Source: Patescibacteria group bacterium (GTDB lineage Bacteria; Patescibacteriota; Patescibacteriia; Patescibacteriales; UBA12465). Taken from it: 64,000 bases of DNA. Below the pieces are notes generated by a model. The model saw only the letters and a program-made list of their open reading frames with translations. It was not told where the DNA came from and ran no database searches. The translations under genes were made by a program, and so were the position numbers. Where the stretch lies: contig JBAZKQ010000001.1 in assembly GCA_041650715.1 (NCBI GenBank), positions 134,945 to 198,944 of the forward strand. Direction: 5' to 3'. Positions 3,645 to 41,858 of this stretch are shown piece after piece; positions within the stretch are counted from its first letter, which is position 1, and each line of letters opens with the position of its first letter.

Positions 3645-3813
3645 AGGTTTCGCGAAGATGTTTAAAGCCAGGATTCGCGAAGATGTTTAAATCCAGGATT
3701 CGCGAAGATGTTTAAAGCCAGGATTCGCGAAGATGTTTAAATCCAGGATTCGCGAAGATGTTTAAATCCAGGATTCGCGAAGATGTTTAAATCCAGGTTT
3801 CGCGAAGCGAAAC
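3645..3813. repeat. 25-bp tandem repeat array, 6 full units plus a partial seventh, between atpD and atpC
   Basis: Read directly. Units start at 3645, 3670, 3695, 3720, 3745 and 3770, with consensus aggattcgcgaagatgtttaaa[g/t]cc. The partial unit at 3795 ends in the hairpin gtttcgc-gaa-gcgaaac. Each unit carries the palindrome TTCGCGAA. Unit junctions create aatcc-a-ggatt. Confidence 0.95.
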
Positions 3814-3917
3814 AAAGTTGTTAATTTAGAATGCGAGCTATAAATATTATTTTTTAAAATTTTAATTTTGAAAAATATATATTTTAGCGAGCCCAGCTGC
3901 AAACTAACTATTAGTTT

Positions 3918-4364
3918 ATGTCTCAGAAGACAATAAAATTTGAAATTGTTACCCCCGAACGCACCGTTATGAAAACGGAGGCTTTACAGGTAACAGTACC
4001 GACCACAAGCGGCGAGATTACGATTCTTCCGGATCATATCCCCTTGGTTTCGATTTTAGCTCCCGGCGTTATTGAAGTTAAACGTAACGACAATGTAATC
4101 GAAATTATGGCCGTGTCCGGTGGTTTTATTGAAGTTTTAAAAGATAAGATTGTTATTTTAGCCGATTCAGCGGAACGCGCCGAAGAATTGGATGAAGAGC
4201 GGATTAAAGAAGCCCAGCAAAAGGCGATCGACTTAAAGAACACCGCTAAAGCGATTGATGATGTCGAATTTGCCGATGTCTCGGCGCGGCTCGAGAAGGA
4301 ACTCGCGCGTATGCGGGCCGTTAATAAGTGGCGCCGTTTGAAAAATATTGATCCTAATAAATAG
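3918..4364 (+). CDS. atpC: F1 ATP synthase epsilon subunit
   Basis: 148 aa. The N-terminal beta-sandwich pattern (KFEIVTPERTV...VTVPTTSGEITILPDHIPLVSILAPGVIEV) and a C-terminal helical hairpin are typical of epsilon. Confidence 0.9.
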   Translation: MSQKTIKFEIVTPERTVMKTEALQVTVPTTSGEITILPDHIPLVSILAPGVIEVKRNDNVIEIMAVSGGFIEVLKDKIVILADSAERAEELDEERIKEAQQKAIDLKNTAKAIDDVEFADVSARLEKELARMRAVNKWRRLKNIDPNK

Positions 4365-38523: not shown

Positions 38524-38708
38524 AACAAAAAATCGCTAAGATGGCGACTTTAATGTATCGGCGTGGAGGAGGGGATGAGATTTTTTAATTGCTCTTTAAC
38601 TTTTGGTTAACCATTTCACAAAAGTCCGGTGTAAACCTATTGTCTTGGCGAAGACCAGTGTATCTCGCTCGCCGACTGTTCGATTTCCATAGTTGTGAAT
38701 TGTTAACT

Positions 38709-38738
38709 AAAAAAGCCACGGCATTCGCCGGGCTTTTT
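38709..38738. terminator. Bidirectional intrinsic terminator downstream of the 312-aa gene
   Basis: aaaaagcc(a)cgg-cattcg-ccgggcttttt hairpin flanked by an A-run and a T-run. Confidence 0.55.
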
Positions 38739-38828
38739 AGTTATTGGCTTTAAAGTCTAGAATTTCTGAAAATTTTGATGGTATTATTGGGGAAATCGAG
38801 AAGTGGGCGGAAATTTTGAGATAAAAAT

Positions 38829-39767
38829 TTATTCAATAACCTTTATACAGAACGCGAACCTATGGTATATAACGTTTTTACCTTTAACAAATGCCTCAAT
38901 ATTATAGTTTCCTGATTTTAGAAAAGTCAAACTAATTTTATTTTTTAATTGATTTTCATGGGCTTGTACAATTTCGCTGTTAAGTCTAATAATTTGTTTA
39001 TCTTCCGTTGCATAAATTGAAAGATTGGTGGTCTTCTCGACTAAAAAGTCCTGCGAAAGAATAAGTCCTATCTCGACTTTTTCGGCCATAATATCACTGC
39101 TATTGTTTATGGAGACGGGGATATCATATTTTTTATTTACAGAAAAATCAAATGTTTCATCTTTTTTTAGATATTTGCCATAAAAAATTAATCCAATTTT
39201 TTCTTCCTTAATAAATAAATCACTAACACTGTTACCATTTTTGGTGGATATATCGGATAATAATGATATTACTTTTTCCTCATAATCTTTTTTTGTTTGG
39301 TTTATTGAACCGAATACCTCAATTAAGATTAAAATGCTTTTCCATAAAATATATATTCCTATAATAAAGGCTATCAAGCTTAATGCTAACAGTAATAATC
39401 TATATTCTATTGCAAAAATTATAAGCGTAGCCATTAATAAGATAAATGCGAAAAAAAAGGGAATAAATATTTTTACAAATAATTTGTCTGGCTTTAAATA
39501 ATTTATTTTAACTTCTGCAATTCTTATATTTTTCTTTAAAGTTTTTATCGTTTTTTGCAAACCAGCGTAATCTAAATTTTTTTCCTCCTCCATTTTTTTA
39601 GTTTCGTTCACAAGGTTTTGATCACTTTGTTTCTTTTCGTTTTCATATTTTTCCAGAAGAAATTTTGAACCTTCTGAAAATATAGATAAAGCAATCGCCA
39701 AAATTGGAAGAACAAAACTCATTATAGTCAATATAAATGAACCATAAAGTTGCAAAGCACTATCCAT
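38829..39767 (-). CDS. Hypothetical membrane protein (TM, coiled coil, 2 TM, beta-rich C-domain)
   Basis: 312-aa ORF with very AT-rich codon usage. Hydrophobic helices lie at roughly residues 10-30, 100-122 and 125-150. A charged coiled segment spans 35-95, and about 160 aa are C-terminal beta-rich. No recognisable motif. Confidence 0.65.
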   Translation of the reverse strand: MDSALQLYGSFILTIMSFVLPILAIALSIFSEGSKFLLEKYENEKKQSDQNLVNETKKMEEEKNLDYAGLQKTIKTLKKNIRIAEVKINYLKPDKLFVKIFIPFFFAFILLMATLIIFAIEYRLLLLALSLIAFIIGIYILWKSILILIEVFGSINQTKKDYEEKVISLLSDISTKNGNSVSDLFIKEEKIGLIFYGKYLKKDETFDFSVNKKYDIPVSINNSSDIMAEKVEIGLILSQDFLVEKTTNLSIYATEDKQIIRLNSEIVQAHENQLKNKISLTFLKSGNYNIEAFVKGKNVIYHRFAFCIKVIE

Positions 39768-39874
39768 ATTTTTTATTGGTTAGTTTAATTAAGACATTAC
39801 TAGTTGGGATAACTATTAATATATAAAGATGAAAACCCTATTTTTCCTTTAATTTATGGGAAGTATTTAAACTA

Positions 39875-39903
39875 TTGACACTTTTTATAATAAGCTATAT
39901 AAT
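39875..39903 (+). promoter_or_regulatory. Perfect consensus sigma70 promoter (TTGACA-N17-TATAAT)
   Basis: TTGACA at 39875-39880, a 17-nt spacer ctttttataataagcta, and TATAAT at 39898-39903. Confidence 0.65.
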
Positions 39904-39909
39904 ATTAAT

Positions 39910-39969
39910 AGCTGACTGGAAACAGTCGCAATCATTTTATAGCTTAGGGGCTCTTTGGGAGTCCTTTTT
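39910..39969 (+). ncRNA. Candidate ~60-nt small RNA (GNRA hairpin plus intrinsic terminator)
   Basis: Lies downstream of the consensus promoter. Hairpin 1 is gc(t)gactg-GAAA-cagtcgc at 39911-39929. Hairpin 2 is gggctc-tttgg-gagtcc at 39948-39964, followed by ttttt at 39965-39969. The G-U pair and the T-run exist only on the plus strand. There is no ORF. Confidence 0.5.
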
Positions 39970-39973
39970 GCTA

Positions 39974-40714
39974 TTAAATCTCTTTTTTCCAACAAATAAA
40001 ATCTTTGATTTTTCTAATATCAAAAATTAGCAAACCGTCCGGACATAAATTATTTAATTCTCTGGATACCCTACGAGATGTTGCAAATAGAATGACTTTT
40101 TTGCCATTTACTAATAAATGTTTTAGGGGTTCAGAAAAATCACTATCTCCGCTCCATAAAATATAAGTATCAATATGGTTTTTATCATGGTCAACAAGTA
40201 TATCTCGACCAATCTCAACGTCAAAATTACATTTTCTATCTTCTAACATATATTCCCCACGAGCGTTCATCTCCTTAAACTTGTTATTCAAATATTCAAT
40301 TGTTGCGACATCGTATTTTCTAATTAAAGATGTTCTAATAAATTGATTTAACAAATCAGTTGATTGGGCAGAAACACTGCTGGCATCAATAGAAAAAGTC
40401 ATGATTTTTACTAACTTTGTTCTTAAATCATAGCCACATTTAGTCATTTCGCGGATCATTGTCTCTGAATTTTGGTCGCCGGTAAGGGTTCCGGCGTATA
40501 TTTTAATGGATTTAATGTTGTCAAAAGAATCTAAAAATTGCTTTAATCTCTTAATATCTATGTGCCAATTTAAATAAGTAGACCAAGGTTTTACATTGGC
40601 ATAATCAATATAGATATTAACATTTCCAGTCAATAAGTTTTCTAACTCAGCGATAATTTTTTTACCTTCATCGCTTGCTATTTCTCCTATTCTTTTGGTC
40701 TTTGCCGTAAACAT
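39974..40714 (-). CDS. NYN-domain (LabA/PIN-like) predicted ribonuclease
   Basis: 246 aa. VNIYIDYANV is the first acidic motif. NFDVEIGRDIL and ILWSGDSDFSEPLKHLLVNGKKVILFA match the NYN/LabA-like pattern (D...D...SGDSDF...GK.V). Confidence 0.8.
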   Translation of the reverse strand: MFTAKTKRIGEIASDEGKKIIAELENLLTGNVNIYIDYANVKPWSTYLNWHIDIKRLKQFLDSFDNIKSIKIYAGTLTGDQNSETMIREMTKCGYDLRTKLVKIMTFSIDASSVSAQSTDLLNQFIRTSLIRKYDVATIEYLNNKFKEMNARGEYMLEDRKCNFDVEIGRDILVDHDKNHIDTYILWSGDSDFSEPLKHLLVNGKKVILFATSRRVSRELNNLCPDGLLIFDIRKIKDFICWKKEI

Positions 40715-40718
40715 ACCT

Positions 40719-41096
40719 TTATTTTTTTTCTTTTAAATCAATAAAATAAATTATTCCGTAATTTTCATCATTTATTTCAGTCGGTTCATATTTTCCTTCA
40801 TACTTTTTATTATCAATTTCAAAACTTCTAAAAAAACTTCTGACCACAATACTGGCTGTTTGCCTGTTATAGCCAAAAATTATTTTAAAGCTTGATTTCC
40901 CCATCCTTTCTTTTGTGAATTGGAAACCCACTCTGTTGTTTCCATCTCCATTATCGTATAACAAAGATACAAAGTTAAACTCTGAAATATTATATTTTCT
41001 TACAAATCCGCCAGCAAAGCCAAATGATTGAGATTTTGTAAGAGAAATTGAATTTGTTAATTTTGCTCCGACATCTTCGAATTTTATAAACGCCAT
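40719..41096 (-). CDS. Hypothetical 125-aa protein, upstream partner of the NYN gene
   Basis: ORF ends 4 nt before the NYN start. It is beta-rich (SISLTKSQSFGFAGGFVRKYNI...VGFQFTKE...SFKIIFGY...ASIVVRSFF), loosely reminiscent of swapped-hairpin or AbrB-like pseudo-barrels. No firm assignment. Confidence 0.6.
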   Translation of the reverse strand: MAFIKFEDVGAKLTNSISLTKSQSFGFAGGFVRKYNISEFNFVSLLYDNGDGNNRVGFQFTKERMGKSSFKIIFGYNRQTASIVVRSFFRSFEIDNKKYEGKYEPTEINDENYGIIYFIDLKEKK

Positions 41097-41124
41097 ATTT
41101 TAATAGTTATCTTATAACTTTATT

Positions 41125-41153
41125 AGTTTATCAAATTAAAAGATGTATGTCAA
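41125..41153 (-). promoter_or_regulatory. Sigma70-like promoter for the 125-aa/NYN cassette (TTGACA-N17-TAAACT)
   Basis: On the minus strand, TTGACA corresponds to plus-strand tgtcaa at 41148-41153. A 17-nt spacer follows, then TAAACT (plus-strand agttta at 41125-41130). About 30 nt upstream of the ATG at 41096. Confidence 0.5.
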
Positions 41154-41504
41154 ATGGAGATTAACCATATATGAAAAATAATGAAATATGTTGAAAAGTT
41201 ATATATTATTAGCTAAATTGTAATTTAAGTAAATGTTATCTTTGTTTTATAAAGTTATCCACAATATGCGTTATTAAGGATAATTTTGATTATTTACTAA
41301 TAAAATCCGCCTCTTGATTCACCCCCTATTTTCTGCCATTACGCTCTCATAGACTTATTAATAAACATAATAAGGCAGGAAGATAAAACATAGCTACGGC
41401 TAGTCAGATTACGGACAATAATTTAAAAAAATGCAGTCTTTAAATAATATAATAAATATAAGCAAAGTCTAAATTTTTGCCAACTCAACTATAAACACGA
41501 GCAA

Positions 41505-41750
41505 TATATCCGGACGGATGGCTTGTGTTTTTTTGTTTGGCCGAGTTGCCCCTCTTGAGGTTGGCCTTGCCATGTATTTCTGAACAACCTCGCCTCACTC
41601 GCGGACCAGTCCGCTCGTTCGTTGTCGCGGTCAGCGTCCGAAGCTCCCCCGGAGCTTCGTCCGACGCTCGCCACGCCTGCGTCCCGCTGGCCGCAGGCTA
41701 AGCTCGCTTCTGACCTGTTCGATTCCCCTCGGCTAACGCCGTCTAATTAA
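41505..41750. other. GC-rich, hairpin-dense non-coding element (candidate structured RNA; strand unresolved)
   Basis: There is an abrupt rise in G+C relative to the AT-rich surroundings. Helices found: 41557-63/41585-91 (gaggttg/caacctc), 41601-05/41610-14, 41634-47/41651-67 (14 bp with a 3-nt bulge), and 41675-81/41692-98 (gcctgcg/cgcaggc). The enclosing pair is 41539-45/41728-34. No credible ORF. Confidence 0.4.
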
Positions 41751-41780
41751 AAAATGCCCAGCTAACGCTGAGCACTTTTT
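41749..41780 (-). terminator. Intrinsic terminator downstream of tRNA-Glu (bidirectional geometry)
   Basis: tgcccagc-taac-gctgagca hairpin flanked by aaaaaa and ttttt. The single mismatch becomes a G-U pair only on the minus strand. Confidence 0.65.
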
Positions 41781-41786
41781 AATTAG

Positions 41787-41858
41787 TAGTCCCTAGGGGA
41801 ATCGAACCCCTGTTACCAGGATGAGAACCTGGCGTCCTAACCGTTAGACGAAGGGACC
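41787..41858 (-). tRNA. tRNA-Glu (anticodon CTC), CCA not encoded
   Basis: Reverse complement folds as GGTCCCT TC GTCT AACGGTTA GGAC G CCAGG TTCTCAT CCTGG TAAC AGGGG TTCGATT CCCCT AGGGACT A. 72 nt. Confidence 0.9.

What the first reader, a model, noticed from the sequence alone, without database searches (positions are those of the whole stretch)
39875..39969. Textbook promoter plus GNRA hairpin plus terminator: a ~60-nt sRNA convergent on the NYN gene and antisense to the NYN/membrane-protein intercistronic region
Seen in the sequence:
- TTGACA-17 nt-TATAAT lies at 39875-39903. It is the only perfect consensus promoter I found in the window.
- Next comes gc(t)gactg-GAAA-cagtcgc.
- Then a gggctc/gagtcc hairpin with a T5 run, ending 5 nt before the NYN stop codon.
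- The hairpin has a G-U pair on the plus strand but an A-C mismatch on the minus strand, and the T-run is plus-strand only. The terminator is therefore oriented for the plus strand.
- No ORF fits.

Inference: this is a cis-antisense RNA to the minus-strand transcript that links the NYN cassette to the 312-aa membrane-protein gene. That arrangement is typical of RNA antitoxins or regulators in type I and type III-like systems.
Basis: partly seen in the sequence, partly recalled or inferred. Interest (0 to 1): 0.62.

Follow-up and report, generated by a model that had tools for sequence, protein, structure and literature searches.

The report
Conserved small RNA partnering NYN nuclease
A roughly 65-nucleotide RNA gene with its own strong promoter and terminator sits tail-to-tail with a gene for a predicted RNA-cutting enzyme; the same pairing recurs in well over a hundred uncultured microbes, pointing to an undescribed RNA that most likely keeps that enzyme in check.

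Summary
Window 39875-39975 (+) holds the only perfect TTGACA-17-TATAAT in 64 kb, a GAAA-tetraloop hairpin, a 16-nt linker and a terminator hairpin.

All 79 intact homologous NYN loci from a genome collection carry the same promoter, hairpin, linker and terminator, convergent on the NYN stop codon. A covariance model finds exactly one copy per locus and none elsewhere in 636 kb.
- Both hairpins covary: 13 of 16 pairs show double changes, and 0 of 500 shuffles reach this.
- Paired cells hold 140 G·U against 9 A·C, so the structure is selected on the sRNA strand.
- Unpaired nucleotides stay conserved where they lie outside the ORF.

Conservation starts exactly at the -35. The 312-aa membrane gene and the 125-aa gene are not conserved partners, so the unit is NYN plus sRNA. 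A KTSC protein joins it in about 40% of loci, and it is often embedded in R-M systems. An RNA-first search finds NYN, or a 5'-truncated NYN remnant, beside every informative copy.

No Rfam family or searchable paper covers it. The best reading is an RNA antitoxin or repressor of the NYN RNase that mixes type I geometry with type III-like protein recognition. Function is untested.

The parts
39875..39880 (+). -35 hexamer TTGACA of the sRNA promoter; also the outer edge of the conserved NYN-sRNA cassette
   Evidence: Across 80 loci the -35 consensus is T77 T71 G70 A65 C60 A42/T35. Among the closest relatives, alignment conservation begins at this hexamer.
39898..39903 (+). -10 hexamer TATAAT, 17-nt spacer
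   Evidence: Across 80 loci the -10 consensus is T75 A77 T57 A65 A41 T78. 67 of 80 loci score at least 9 of 12, and the -10 ends 0-2 nt before model position 1 in 56 of 80.
39909..39972 (+). Predicted sRNA transcript. The start is inferred at about 39909-39911, 6-8 nt after the -10. The 3' end is inferred in or just after the U-tract/GC at 39967-39972.
   Evidence: Covariance model R1 hits window 39908-39975 (+) at 38 bits, E = 4.5e-6, and this is the only hit in the window. The ends are inferred, not measured.
39911..39929 (+). Hairpin 1: 7-bp stem with one bulged U and a GAAA (GNRA) tetraloop, flush with the predicted 5' end
   Evidence: All 79 homologues fold a hairpin here; 62 of 79 have GNRA loops and there are 51 distinct stem arms. 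All 5 modelled pairs show double compensatory changes.
39930..39945 (+). Single-stranded linker AAUCAUUUUAUAGCUU carrying the family's conserved unpaired nucleotides: U39936 and G39942-C39943-U39944 are invariant; A39934, U39938 and A39939 are at least 90% conserved
   Evidence: Invariant and near-invariant columns. The motif is still at least 90% conserved in the 34 loci where it lies outside the NYN ORF.
39946..39966 (+). Hairpin 2 / intrinsic terminator stem-loop: 9 bp, including the family-conserved wobble G39950·U39962
   Evidence: 8 of 9 pairs show compensatory changes, and the G·U is kept in 72 of 79 sequences. It is kept in 30 of 34 short-form loci.
39964..39971 (+). U-tract (39964-39969) followed by invariant G39970-C39971, which can clamp onto G39942-C39943
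   Evidence: The G-C and C-G pairs are invariant in 79 of 79 sequences. Because they never vary, the pairing itself cannot be tested by covariation.
39974..40714 (-). NYN (LabA-like, PF01936) nuclease gene, 246 aa: the obligate conserved partner. Its stop codon (39974-39976) overlaps the model hit by 2 nt.
   Evidence: Pfam NYN, E = 3e-17. D37, N40, D165, D190 and D192 are invariant in 36 homologues. The AF2 model has pLDDT 90.9 and its best PDB match is 2qip, a LabA-like NYN. It is adjacent to the sRNA in 79 of 79 intact loci.
40719..41096 (-). 125-aa gene 4 nt upstream of NYN: a local operon partner only, not part of the conserved unit
   Evidence: No homologue in the 80 loci. Its 6 homologues sit in other contexts without NYN or the sRNA.

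Best explanation
The element is an independently transcribed small RNA of about 62-65 nt. It has a near-consensus sigma-70 promoter, a 5'-terminal GNRA hairpin, a conserved 16-nt single-stranded linker and an intrinsic terminator.

It is the universal RNA partner of one subfamily of NYN (LabA-like) ribonuclease genes, and the two together form a compact mobile two-part cassette.

The most likely role is negative control of the nuclease, as an RNA antitoxin or repressor.
- Main mode (committed view): the NYN protein reads the conserved unpaired nucleotides and the strand-specific hairpin geometry. The RNA is held as a pseudo-substrate or inhibitor, which is type III-like.
- Secondary mode: the RNA is encoded tail-to-tail with the NYN gene and overlaps its last codons or 3' UTR. 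It is therefore also perfectly complementary to the 3' end of the NYN mRNA and can lower its expression, which is type I-like geometry.

Shown here: the anatomy, conservation, covariation, the strand of selection, the obligate linkage to NYN and the boundary of the cassette.

Inferred: transcription, NYN toxicity, neutralisation and the mode of action.
For: (1) The perfect promoter is unique in the window, with 0.03 expected by chance. The promoter is conserved at a fixed distance in 67 of 80 loci at 9 or more of 12 matches.

(2) One model hit per locus in 80 of 81 sources. It is always convergent on the NYN stop codon, with none elsewhere in 636 kb.

(3) Covariation: 98.9% of cells are paired, 13 of 16 pairs show double changes, and there are 174 compensatory cells against 29 in shuffles (0 of 500). 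Slid controls reach only 50-67% paired. Hairpin 1 folds in 79 of 79 sequences with 51 different stem arms.

(4) Strand of selection: 140 G·U against 9 A·C in paired cells, and the sRNA strand is the more stable in 78 of 80.

(5) The unpaired motif U.UA..GCUU, the UUUGC and the G·U stay at least 90% conserved in the 34 loci where they are non-coding. Protein identity across these loci is only 54-71%. A pure cis-antisense RNA needs no fixed sequence, and NYN is the only partner present in all loci.

(6) The NYN stop codon abuts the RNA's 3' end in 31 loci. In 49 loci the ORF runs 22-49 nt (91 nt in one locus) into the RNA gene.

(7) An RNA-first search of metagenomes gave 50 loci. 42-43 carry NYN at the fixed distance, 6-7 carry 5'-truncated NYN remnants that keep an intact sRNA scoring 73-89 bits, and 1 is cut by the contig end. 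None has an unrelated neighbour in NYN's place.

(8) Cassette behaviour:
- It sits in a low-GC islet (27-30% against about 42%) beside tRNA-Glu in the window.
- It is spread across many phyla at 54-77% identity.
- It is inserted among housekeeping genes or embedded in type III and type I R-M loci.

(9) The catalytic Asp and Asn residues of NYN are invariant.
Against: - There is no transcript, toxicity or binding data of any kind.
- The RNA is built to be stable, with a hairpin flush with the 5' end and a terminator hairpin at the 3' end. RNA antitoxins are usually labile.
- About 34 of 80 loci have a 70-aa KTSC gene 5 nt upstream of NYN. The window has a 125-aa gene in the same position. A small upstream protein is the classic place for a protein antitoxin, so the RNA might have another job.
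- A distant NYN defence candidate, HEC-09, gave no phage protection when tested.
- The obligate linkage fits an essential RNA cofactor equally well.
- The conserved geometry may simply be inherited, since all loci belong to one family.
Confidence: 0.55

Rival explanations
1. The RNA is a positive partner of NYN rather than an inhibitor. It would be a cofactor, scaffold, guide or dedicated substrate forming a functional ribonucleoprotein, and NYN is never found without it because it cannot work without it.
For: - Linkage is 100% in both search directions.
- The conserved unpaired nucleotides and the G·U point to protein recognition.
- The architecture, with hairpins at both ends, is that of a stable RNA.
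- The KTSC domain, described in Pfam as a possible RNA-binding domain, co-occurs in about 34 loci.
Against: - The linker is nearly constant across loci, so it carries no variable guide segment.
- The convergent overlap with the NYN 3' end should reduce NYN expression, not promote it.
- The promoter is far stronger than stoichiometric supply would need.
- A small mobile nuclease cassette scattered among housekeeping genes and R-M loci behaves like an addiction or defence module.
Confidence: 0.2
2. Pure type I-like antisense control. The RNA acts only by pairing with the 3' end of the NYN mRNA, causing RNase III cleavage or blocking translation of the last codons. No protein contact is involved.
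For: - The convergent geometry is strictly conserved.
- The ORF overlaps the RNA gene by 22-49 nt (91 nt in one locus) in 49 of 80 loci.
- There is no usable intrinsic terminator on the NYN-sense strand before the RNA gene; hairpin 2 carries A·C mismatches there and no U-tract.
Against: - A cis-antisense pair co-varies automatically, so this model does not explain the invariant unpaired GCU, GC and U.UA in the 34 loci where they are non-coding.
- It does not explain the conserved G·U either.
- In the window the overlap with the ORF is only 2 nt.
- No second pairing site exists at the NYN start region: mean z = +0.31 in 79 loci.
Confidence: 0.12
3. The element is a promoter plus a conditional terminator, that is, an attenuator. 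When termination fails, a long antisense transcript crosses NYN and silences it by transcriptional interference; the short RNA is a by-product.
For: - A strong promoter aims into the NYN gene.
- The U-tract is short (3-5 U) and interrupted by an invariant GC, so termination could be leaky.
Against: - No alternative antiterminator pairing is visible. The minimum-free-energy and centroid structures coincide.
- The consensus fold consists only of the two hairpins plus the clamp.
- The terminator stem is GC-rich and conserved.
Confidence: 0.06
4. Chance promoter-like and hairpin-like sequences in AT-rich intergenic DNA, or merely the terminator of the NYN gene.
For: The region is 27% GC, and promoter-like hexamers are common there: 59 found against 31 expected in 10 kb.
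Against: - All the conservation, covariation and strand evidence above.
- The U-tract is on the wrong strand to terminate NYN.
Confidence: 0.01

Closest known systems
Convergent, 3'-overlapping type I toxin-antitoxin loci: B. subtilis txpA/RatA and bsrG/SR4, and the Enterococcus par (fst) RNA I/RNA II pair (from my own knowledge of these systems)
   Same: - A small RNA from a strong promoter is transcribed tail-to-tail with the toxin gene.
- It is complementary to the 3' end of the toxin mRNA.
- The module is compact and mobile.
   Different: - Those toxins are hydrophobic peptides under 60 aa; here the protein is a 246-aa soluble NYN nuclease.
- Those antisense RNAs are 100-220 nt and need no fixed sequence; this one is about 65 nt and has invariant unpaired nucleotides.
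Type III toxin-antitoxin systems ToxIN, CptIN and TenpIN (PMC3401426, PMC5086642)
   Same: - An endoribonuclease is paired with a dedicated structured non-coding RNA that the protein probably recognises.
- A terminator sets the RNA-to-protein ratio.
- The setting is defence or addiction.
   Different: - In type III the RNA is a tandem array of 34-36-nt repeats, upstream of and co-directional with the toxin, and processed by it.
- Here there is one non-repeated RNA, convergent and downstream.
- The toxin fold is NYN/PIN-like, not ToxN/AbiQ-like.
AvcID (PMC10511110)
   Same: A single non-repeat sRNA, made in excess, binds and inhibits a protein toxin. The system is activated when transcription stops.
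   Different: - The toxin is a deoxycytidylate deaminase.
- There is no sequence or structural relation between the RNAs.
- The gene arrangement differs.
SymE/SymR and RalR/RalA (from my own knowledge)
   Same: Type I systems in which the toxin is nuclease-like rather than a membrane peptide, and is controlled by a cis or trans antisense sRNA.
   Different: - The antisense RNA acts at the 5' end or coding region of the toxin mRNA.
- The protein folds are unrelated.
- No conserved protein-recognition features have been reported in those RNAs.
HEC-09, a NYN-domain candidate defence gene embedded in Hma systems (bioRxiv 10.1101/2024.01.29.577857)
   Same: - A NYN nuclease embedded inside other defence systems.
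- The window protein hits the PADLOC HEC-09 model over its C-terminal half, E = 2.6e-8.
   Different: - The match covers only the NYN core.
- No RNA partner was reported.
- HEC-09 showed no defence against the phages tested.

Membership tests
Sigma-70-driven, intrinsically terminated bacterial sRNA gene | -35 and -10 hexamers with 16-18 nt spacing, conserved in homologues | tested here: met
   12 of 12 matches in the window. 67 of 80 loci score at least 9 of 12, at a fixed distance from the RNA.
Sigma-70-driven, intrinsically terminated bacterial sRNA gene | GC-rich stem-loop followed by a U-tract on the transcribed strand | tested here: met
   8 of 9 stem pairs covary. G·U pairs make the structure strand-specific.
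Sigma-70-driven, intrinsically terminated bacterial sRNA gene | A transcript of the predicted size is detected | not testable with these tools
   No RNA-seq or metatranscriptome mapping is available.
Any Rfam 15 family | Covariance-model score at or above the gathering threshold | tested here: not met
   Only three tRNAs in the window reach threshold. At E up to 10, nothing overlaps 39905-39968.
Type I toxin-antitoxin | The antitoxin is an RNA complementary to the toxin mRNA | tested here: inconclusive
   The genomic overlap with the NYN ORF is 2 nt in the window and 22-49 nt (91 nt in one locus) in 49 of 80 loci. Full complementarity requires the NYN transcript to extend past its stop codon, which is likely because there is no sense-strand terminator, but it was not measured.
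Type I toxin-antitoxin | The toxin is a small (under about 60 aa) hydrophobic peptide | tested here: not met
   The partner is a 246-aa NYN-domain protein with a confident globular alpha/beta model.
Type III toxin-antitoxin (ToxIN/CptIN/TenpIN) | The antitoxin is a tandem array of short direct RNA repeats, upstream of and co-directional with the toxin | tested here: not met
   There are no tandem repeats in 38700-41800 apart from a 27-nt AT-rich run. The RNA is single-copy and convergent.
Type III toxin-antitoxin (ToxIN/CptIN/TenpIN) | The toxin belongs to the ToxN/AbiQ/CptN/TenpN endoribonuclease folds | tested here: not met
   Pfam assigns NYN. The best structural match is 2qip, a LabA-like NYN.
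Type III toxin-antitoxin (ToxIN/CptIN/TenpIN) | The RNA binds and inhibits the toxin protein | not testable with these tools
   This is inferred only from the conserved unpaired nucleotides.
NYN / LabA-like nuclease (PF01936, COG1432) | Pfam model above threshold, conserved acidic active-site residues, and a PIN-like fold | tested here: met
   63.9 bits against a cut-off of 24.2. D37, N40, D165, D190 and D192 are invariant. Foldseek matches 2qip at E = 5e-8.
Toxin-antitoxin module in general | The toxin is growth-inhibitory alone and is neutralised by the partner | not testable with these tools
   There is only indirect support: NYN never occurs without the RNA, NYN remnants keep the RNA, and the cassette behaves as a mobile unit.

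The most novel reading that the evidence does not exclude
NYN plus this RNA would be a new class of RNA-controlled nuclease module, neither type I nor type III. A single hairpin-linker-hairpin RNA of about 65 nt occupies the NYN active site as a pseudo-substrate while also being antisense to the nuclease mRNA.

The module would be released on transcription shut-off and so act as an addiction or abortive-infection device. It would be embedded in R-M systems of CPR bacteria and other uncultured lineages.

Optional add-ons would be a KTSC protein acting as an RNA/tRNA-binding adaptor. In a subset of loci, a DnaA box at the -35 would tie antitoxin synthesis to replication status.
Probability: 0.2. 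Interest if true: 0.85.

Novelty: new variant of a known kind. Interest (0 to 1): 0.7.

Why it matters
Bacterial NYN/LabA-like nucleases are abundant, but they are almost uncharacterised. The 2017 PIN-superfamily survey states that functional studies are lacking (PMC5499597).

This finding gives one large subfamily a dedicated, strongly covarying RNA partner. That subfamily has more than 1,800 homologues, with 231 matching stretches among the genomes representing 185,579 species. The partner RNA is absent from Rfam 15 and from the literature I could search.

It also yields a concrete hypothesis that is cheap to test: a nuclease held in check by a 65-nt RNA.

It would extend RNA-antitoxin biology in three directions:
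- to a new toxin fold;
- to a new RNA architecture that mixes type I geometry with type III-like recognition;
- to Patescibacteria (CPR), where regulatory RNAs and defence systems are poorly known.

Gene callers currently place spurious ORFs over the RNA, so a covariance model would also correct annotation.

Tried and rejected
- Rfam, at gathering and permissive thresholds: no family matches.
- Small-peptide reading: the 51-aa TTG ORF is not frame-conserved.
- The 312-aa membrane protein or the 125-aa protein as system components: no homologues in the 80 loci. Homologues of the 125-aa protein lie elsewhere without NYN or the RNA.
- Conserved operon read-through into the downstream gene: downstream genes are variable and on either strand.
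- Second, trans pairing of the conserved linker with the NYN translation-initiation region: duplex energies are no better than shuffled linkers, mean z = +0.31, with no preferred position.
- ToxI-like tandem repeats: none.
- Conservation as a by-product of NYN coding: the motifs persist in the 34 loci where they are non-coding.
- Bidirectional terminator for NYN: the sense strand has A·C mismatches and no U-tract.
- Phage origin or phage-encoded mimics:
  - only one full-length NYN in IMG/VR, and it does carry the RNA;
  - five 16-mer matches in viral contigs, none of them the RNA;
  - no match in the INPHARED phages or PLSDB plasmids.
- Solved structures by sequence: none.
- Literature searches for NYN with KTSC, RNA antitoxin, antisense or Patescibacteria found nothing relevant.

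Full report
**1. The observation**

- TTGACA (39875-39880), a 17-nt spacer and TATAAT (39898-39903) lie on the + strand.
- A pattern search on both strands of the 64-kb window finds this single perfect site. Dinucleotide-preserving shuffles give 0.03.
- Downstream come GC(U)GACUG-GAAA-CAGUCGC (39911-39929), a 16-nt unpaired stretch, then AGGGGCUCU-UUG-GGAGUCCUU (39946-39966) with a U-tract.
- The NYN stop codon is at 39974-39976.
- As RNA, 39908-39975 (+) folds at -25.1 kcal/mol (z = -4.6). The opposite strand folds at only -16.0 kcal/mol, because three G·U pairs become A·C.
- No Rfam family matches, even at E up to 10.

**2. Setting**

- The window comes from a Patescibacteria MAG. The NYN protein is 100% identical to an NCBI MAG protein on an 809-kb contig.
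- The RNA gene lies in a low-GC islet (27-30% GC against about 42%) spanning roughly 38800-41500, next to tRNA-Glu at 41786-41858.
- On the minus strand there is a 125-aa gene, then the 246-aa NYN gene 4 nt later, then a 206-nt gap that holds the RNA gene, then a 312-aa membrane-protein gene.
- The 246-aa protein matches Pfam NYN (E = 3e-17) and has no defence-system assignment beyond a core-domain hit to PADLOC HEC-09.
- Its AF2 model is confident (pLDDT 90.9). Its only significant solved relative is the LabA-like NYN protein 2qip.
- D37, N40, D165, D190 and D192 are invariant among 36 homologues.

**3.

- The NYN protein has 1,875 detectable homologues; the best 120 are 58-77% identical to the window protein.
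- A protein-anchored scan of one genome per species returned 231 stretches that encode a relative; the best 80 were fetched.
- Their record titles name Patescibacteria lineages, Omnitrophota, Acidobacteriota, Chitinophagaceae, Clostridia, Planctomycetes, Elusimicrobia and MAGs labelled Gammaproteobacteria. One close protein homologue is named as from a Hodarchaeales archaeon.
- In every locus with intact sequence, the DNA just past the NYN stop shows the same convergent element. Read on the sRNA strand, it consists of:
  - a TTGAC-type -35 and a TATAAT-type -10;
  - a short hairpin;
  - the linker ..A.U.UA..GCUU;
  - a GC-rich hairpin;
  - UUUGC.
- A covariance model built from 38 of these sequences was run over the window plus all 80 loci (636 kb, both strands).
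  - It gives exactly one hit per locus.
  - The only locus without a hit is L008, which has a run of Ns there.
  - The hit is always in the same place and orientation, and there are no others.
  - The window scores 38 bits, E = 4.5e-6.

**4. Structure and strand**

- On the model alignment, 98.9% of pair cells are standard pairs.
- 13 of 16 pairs show changes on both sides, with 174 compensatory cells against 29 ± 7 in shuffles (0 of 500 reach the observed value). Sliding the partners by 1-3 columns drops pairing to 50-67%.
- An alignment-independent check agrees: all 79 sequences fold a 5' hairpin, with 51 different stem arms. 62 of 79 have GNRA tetraloops and 2 have UUCG.
- RNAalifold on the plain MAFFT alignment recovers the terminator hairpin, with 8 of 11 pairs compensated.
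- Paired cells contain 140 G·U or U·G but only 9 A·C or C·A. The sRNA strand is the more stable in 78 of 80 loci. One G·U (G39950·U39962) is kept in 72 of 79.
- The structure is therefore selected on the strand that carries the promoter, not on the NYN mRNA.
- The promoter is conserved too. 67 of 80 loci score at least 9 of 12, and the -10 ends 0-2 nt before model position 1 in 56 of 80. The transcript should therefore start within a nucleotide or two of the foot of hairpin 1.

**5. What belongs to the unit**

- Neither the 125-aa nor the 312-aa window protein has a homologue in any of the 80 loci.
- The six homologues of the 125-aa protein occur next to DNA methyltransferases, without NYN or the RNA.
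- In the closest relatives of the window cassette (71-76% protein identity), nucleotide conservation runs from the NYN gene through the RNA and stops at the -35 hexamer.
- The next gene beyond the promoter is variable and on either strand: 49 on the same strand, 20 on the opposite.
- The conserved unit is therefore NYN plus the RNA with its promoter.
- About 34 of the 80 loci add a 70-aa KTSC-domain gene (PF13619, E about 1e-23 for the two tested) 5 nt upstream of NYN.

**6. Linkage from the RNA side**

A metagenome scan for a 19-mer of the linker and hairpin-2 junction gave 50 loci.
- 42-43 have NYN at the fixed distance. It is either full length or cut only by the contig end.
- One is uninformative because the contig ends.
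- Six or seven have a 5'-truncated NYN remnant (the last 9-76 codons) next to a full-scoring RNA of 73-89 bits.
- None has an unrelated gene in NYN's place.

No intact NYN of this subfamily was seen without the RNA, including a 48%-identical copy on a viral contig. The RNA, by contrast, can outlive the nuclease. Sampling limits this argument: the RNA-first search cannot see RNA-less remnants, and only the best 80 of the 231 genome hits were fetched.

**7. Geometry relative to the NYN ORF**

- In 31 loci, including the window, the stop codon abuts the RNA's 3' end (-12 to +4 nt).
- In 49 loci the ORF reads 22-49 nt into the RNA gene (91 nt in one locus). In the common form it passes through hairpin 2 and stops at the UAG that is the complement of the linker's CUA.
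- The conserved features are not a coding by-product. In the 34 loci with an overlap of 4 nt or less, the G·U is kept in 30 and the U.UA..GCUU and UUUGC motifs stay at least 90% conserved.
- No intrinsic terminator exists on the NYN-sense strand before the RNA gene. The NYN mRNA therefore probably extends across it, which would make the RNA fully complementary to the mRNA 3' end. This is inferred.

**8. Mechanism**

A cis-antisense pair changes on both strands together, so antisense action alone places no constraint on sequence. Yet unpaired nucleotides are invariant or nearly so across loci whose proteins are only 54-71% identical and whose hosts span many phyla. The only partner common to all loci is NYN.

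I therefore favour direct recognition of the RNA by NYN. The linker would be presented between two stable hairpins as a pseudo-substrate or inhibitor, which is type III-like. The antisense overlap would be a second, unavoidable negative layer, which is type I-like.

Support for a negative, antitoxin-like role:
- a very strong promoter set against an operon-internal nuclease gene;
- convergent overlap;
- a nuclease with an intact active site;
- a small cassette scattered in low-GC islets among housekeeping genes.
- The cassette is also embedded between mod and res of type III R-M systems in 9 loci.
- R-M components are the commonest neighbours overall: ResIII 12, HsdS 6 and N6_N4 methylase 4 of 138.

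Points against:
- The RNA looks built for stability.
- A small upstream protein (KTSC, or the 125-aa protein here) could be a protein antitoxin.
- An obligate RNA cofactor would give the same linkage.
- A conserved second pairing site at the NYN start region was tested and rejected.

**9. Comparison with known systems**

- It works most like RNA-antitoxin modules, but it fails defining features of both classes. Type I toxins are small hydrophobic peptides; here the protein is a 246-aa NYN nuclease. Type III antitoxins are tandem repeats upstream of a ToxN-type toxin; here there are no repeats, the RNA is single-copy and convergent, and the fold is NYN.
- AvcID shows that a single non-repeat sRNA can inhibit a protein toxin (PMC10511110), but it is unrelated.
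- HEC-09 is a NYN candidate embedded in defence systems. It has no reported RNA and showed no defence in tests.
- The PIN-superfamily survey records that bacterial NYN proteins lack functional studies (PMC5499597).
- Searches of the held literature for NYN with KTSC, RNA antitoxin, antisense or Patescibacteria found nothing on this pairing. Subscription-only papers were not searchable.

**10. Verdict**

- It is a new, strongly supported RNA family tied to a NYN nuclease subfamily, and I rate it a new variant of RNA-controlled toxin or nuclease modules.
- Function and mode of action remain inferred.
- The decisive experiments are transcript mapping and a toxicity-rescue test with a recoded NYN gene.

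Noticed in passing
L003, L004, L010, L014, L024, L029, L038, L046, L047, L049, L061, L064, L067, L070 (32-40 nt beyond the sRNA 5' end); window 41255-41263: A perfect DnaA-box 9-mer (TTATCCACA) abuts the -35 of the sRNA promoter in 14 loci. That is 14 of the 23 perfect boxes in 580 kb, where about 4 would be expected in total. 13 of the 14 share one orientation, and more loci have a box with one mismatch. The window lacks a box there but has one upstream of the 125aa-NYN operon. It may couple RNA synthesis to DnaA, or it may mark an insertion preference.
   Followed up: partly
L011-L014, L016, L019-L021, L023, L024 and others, immediately upstream of NYN (e.g. L014 about 3786-3998): A 70-aa KTSC-domain gene (PF13619) sits 5 nt upstream of NYN in about 34 of 80 loci. 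These loci have the most uniform RNA (UGAUC-GNAA-GAUCA hairpin) and mostly the long NYN ORF form. Pfam describes KTSC as a possible RNA-binding domain found at the C-terminus of some lysyl-tRNA synthetases.
   Followed up: partly
L014 1206-7536; L035 959-7542; also L024, L027, L032, L034, L037, L062, L064: The KTSC-NYN-sRNA cassette is embedded between the mod (N6_N4 methylase) and res (ResIII) genes of type III R-M systems. Across all loci, R-M components are the commonest immediate neighbours (ResIII 12, type I HsdS 6, N6_N4_Mtase 4 of 138).
   Followed up: partly
L091 about 2450-2577; L094 8379-8607; L111 1804-1930; L123 1186-1480; L129 about 1957-2050; L130 3066-3243: 5'-truncated NYN remnants (the last 9-76 codons) retain a full-scoring sRNA (73-89 bits). 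In L091 the remnant follows a 552-aa ORF that was not characterised.
   Followed up: yes
window 41500-41785 (minus strand): A 61%-GC block with no ORF of 90 aa or more lies between tRNA-Glu and the low-GC islet. It is strongly structured (MFE -117.9 kcal/mol, z = -5.3) and has a perfect 19-bp hairpin directly after the tRNA 3' end. There is no Rfam match.
   Followed up: partly
window 39875-40030 (+); L139 3739-3873 (-); L140 2049-2255 (-): ORF finders and gene callers place spurious small ORFs (51, 44 and 68 aa) over the sRNA gene and the NYN 3' end, so the RNA is being mis-annotated as hypothetical proteins.
   Followed up: yes
L134 4375-5046; L135 915-1586; L136 481-1152: Homologues of the window's 125-aa protein are followed by a conserved gap of about 670 nt with no called gene, before an N6_N4 DNA methyltransferase. 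The sRNA model finds nothing there, and the gap was not examined further.
   Followed up: no
window 38800-41500: A low-GC islet (as low as 18-27% GC in 200-nt windows, against about 42% in the flanks) ends beside tRNA-Glu(CTC). This is consistent with horizontal acquisition, but no integrase or direct repeats were looked for.
   Followed up: no
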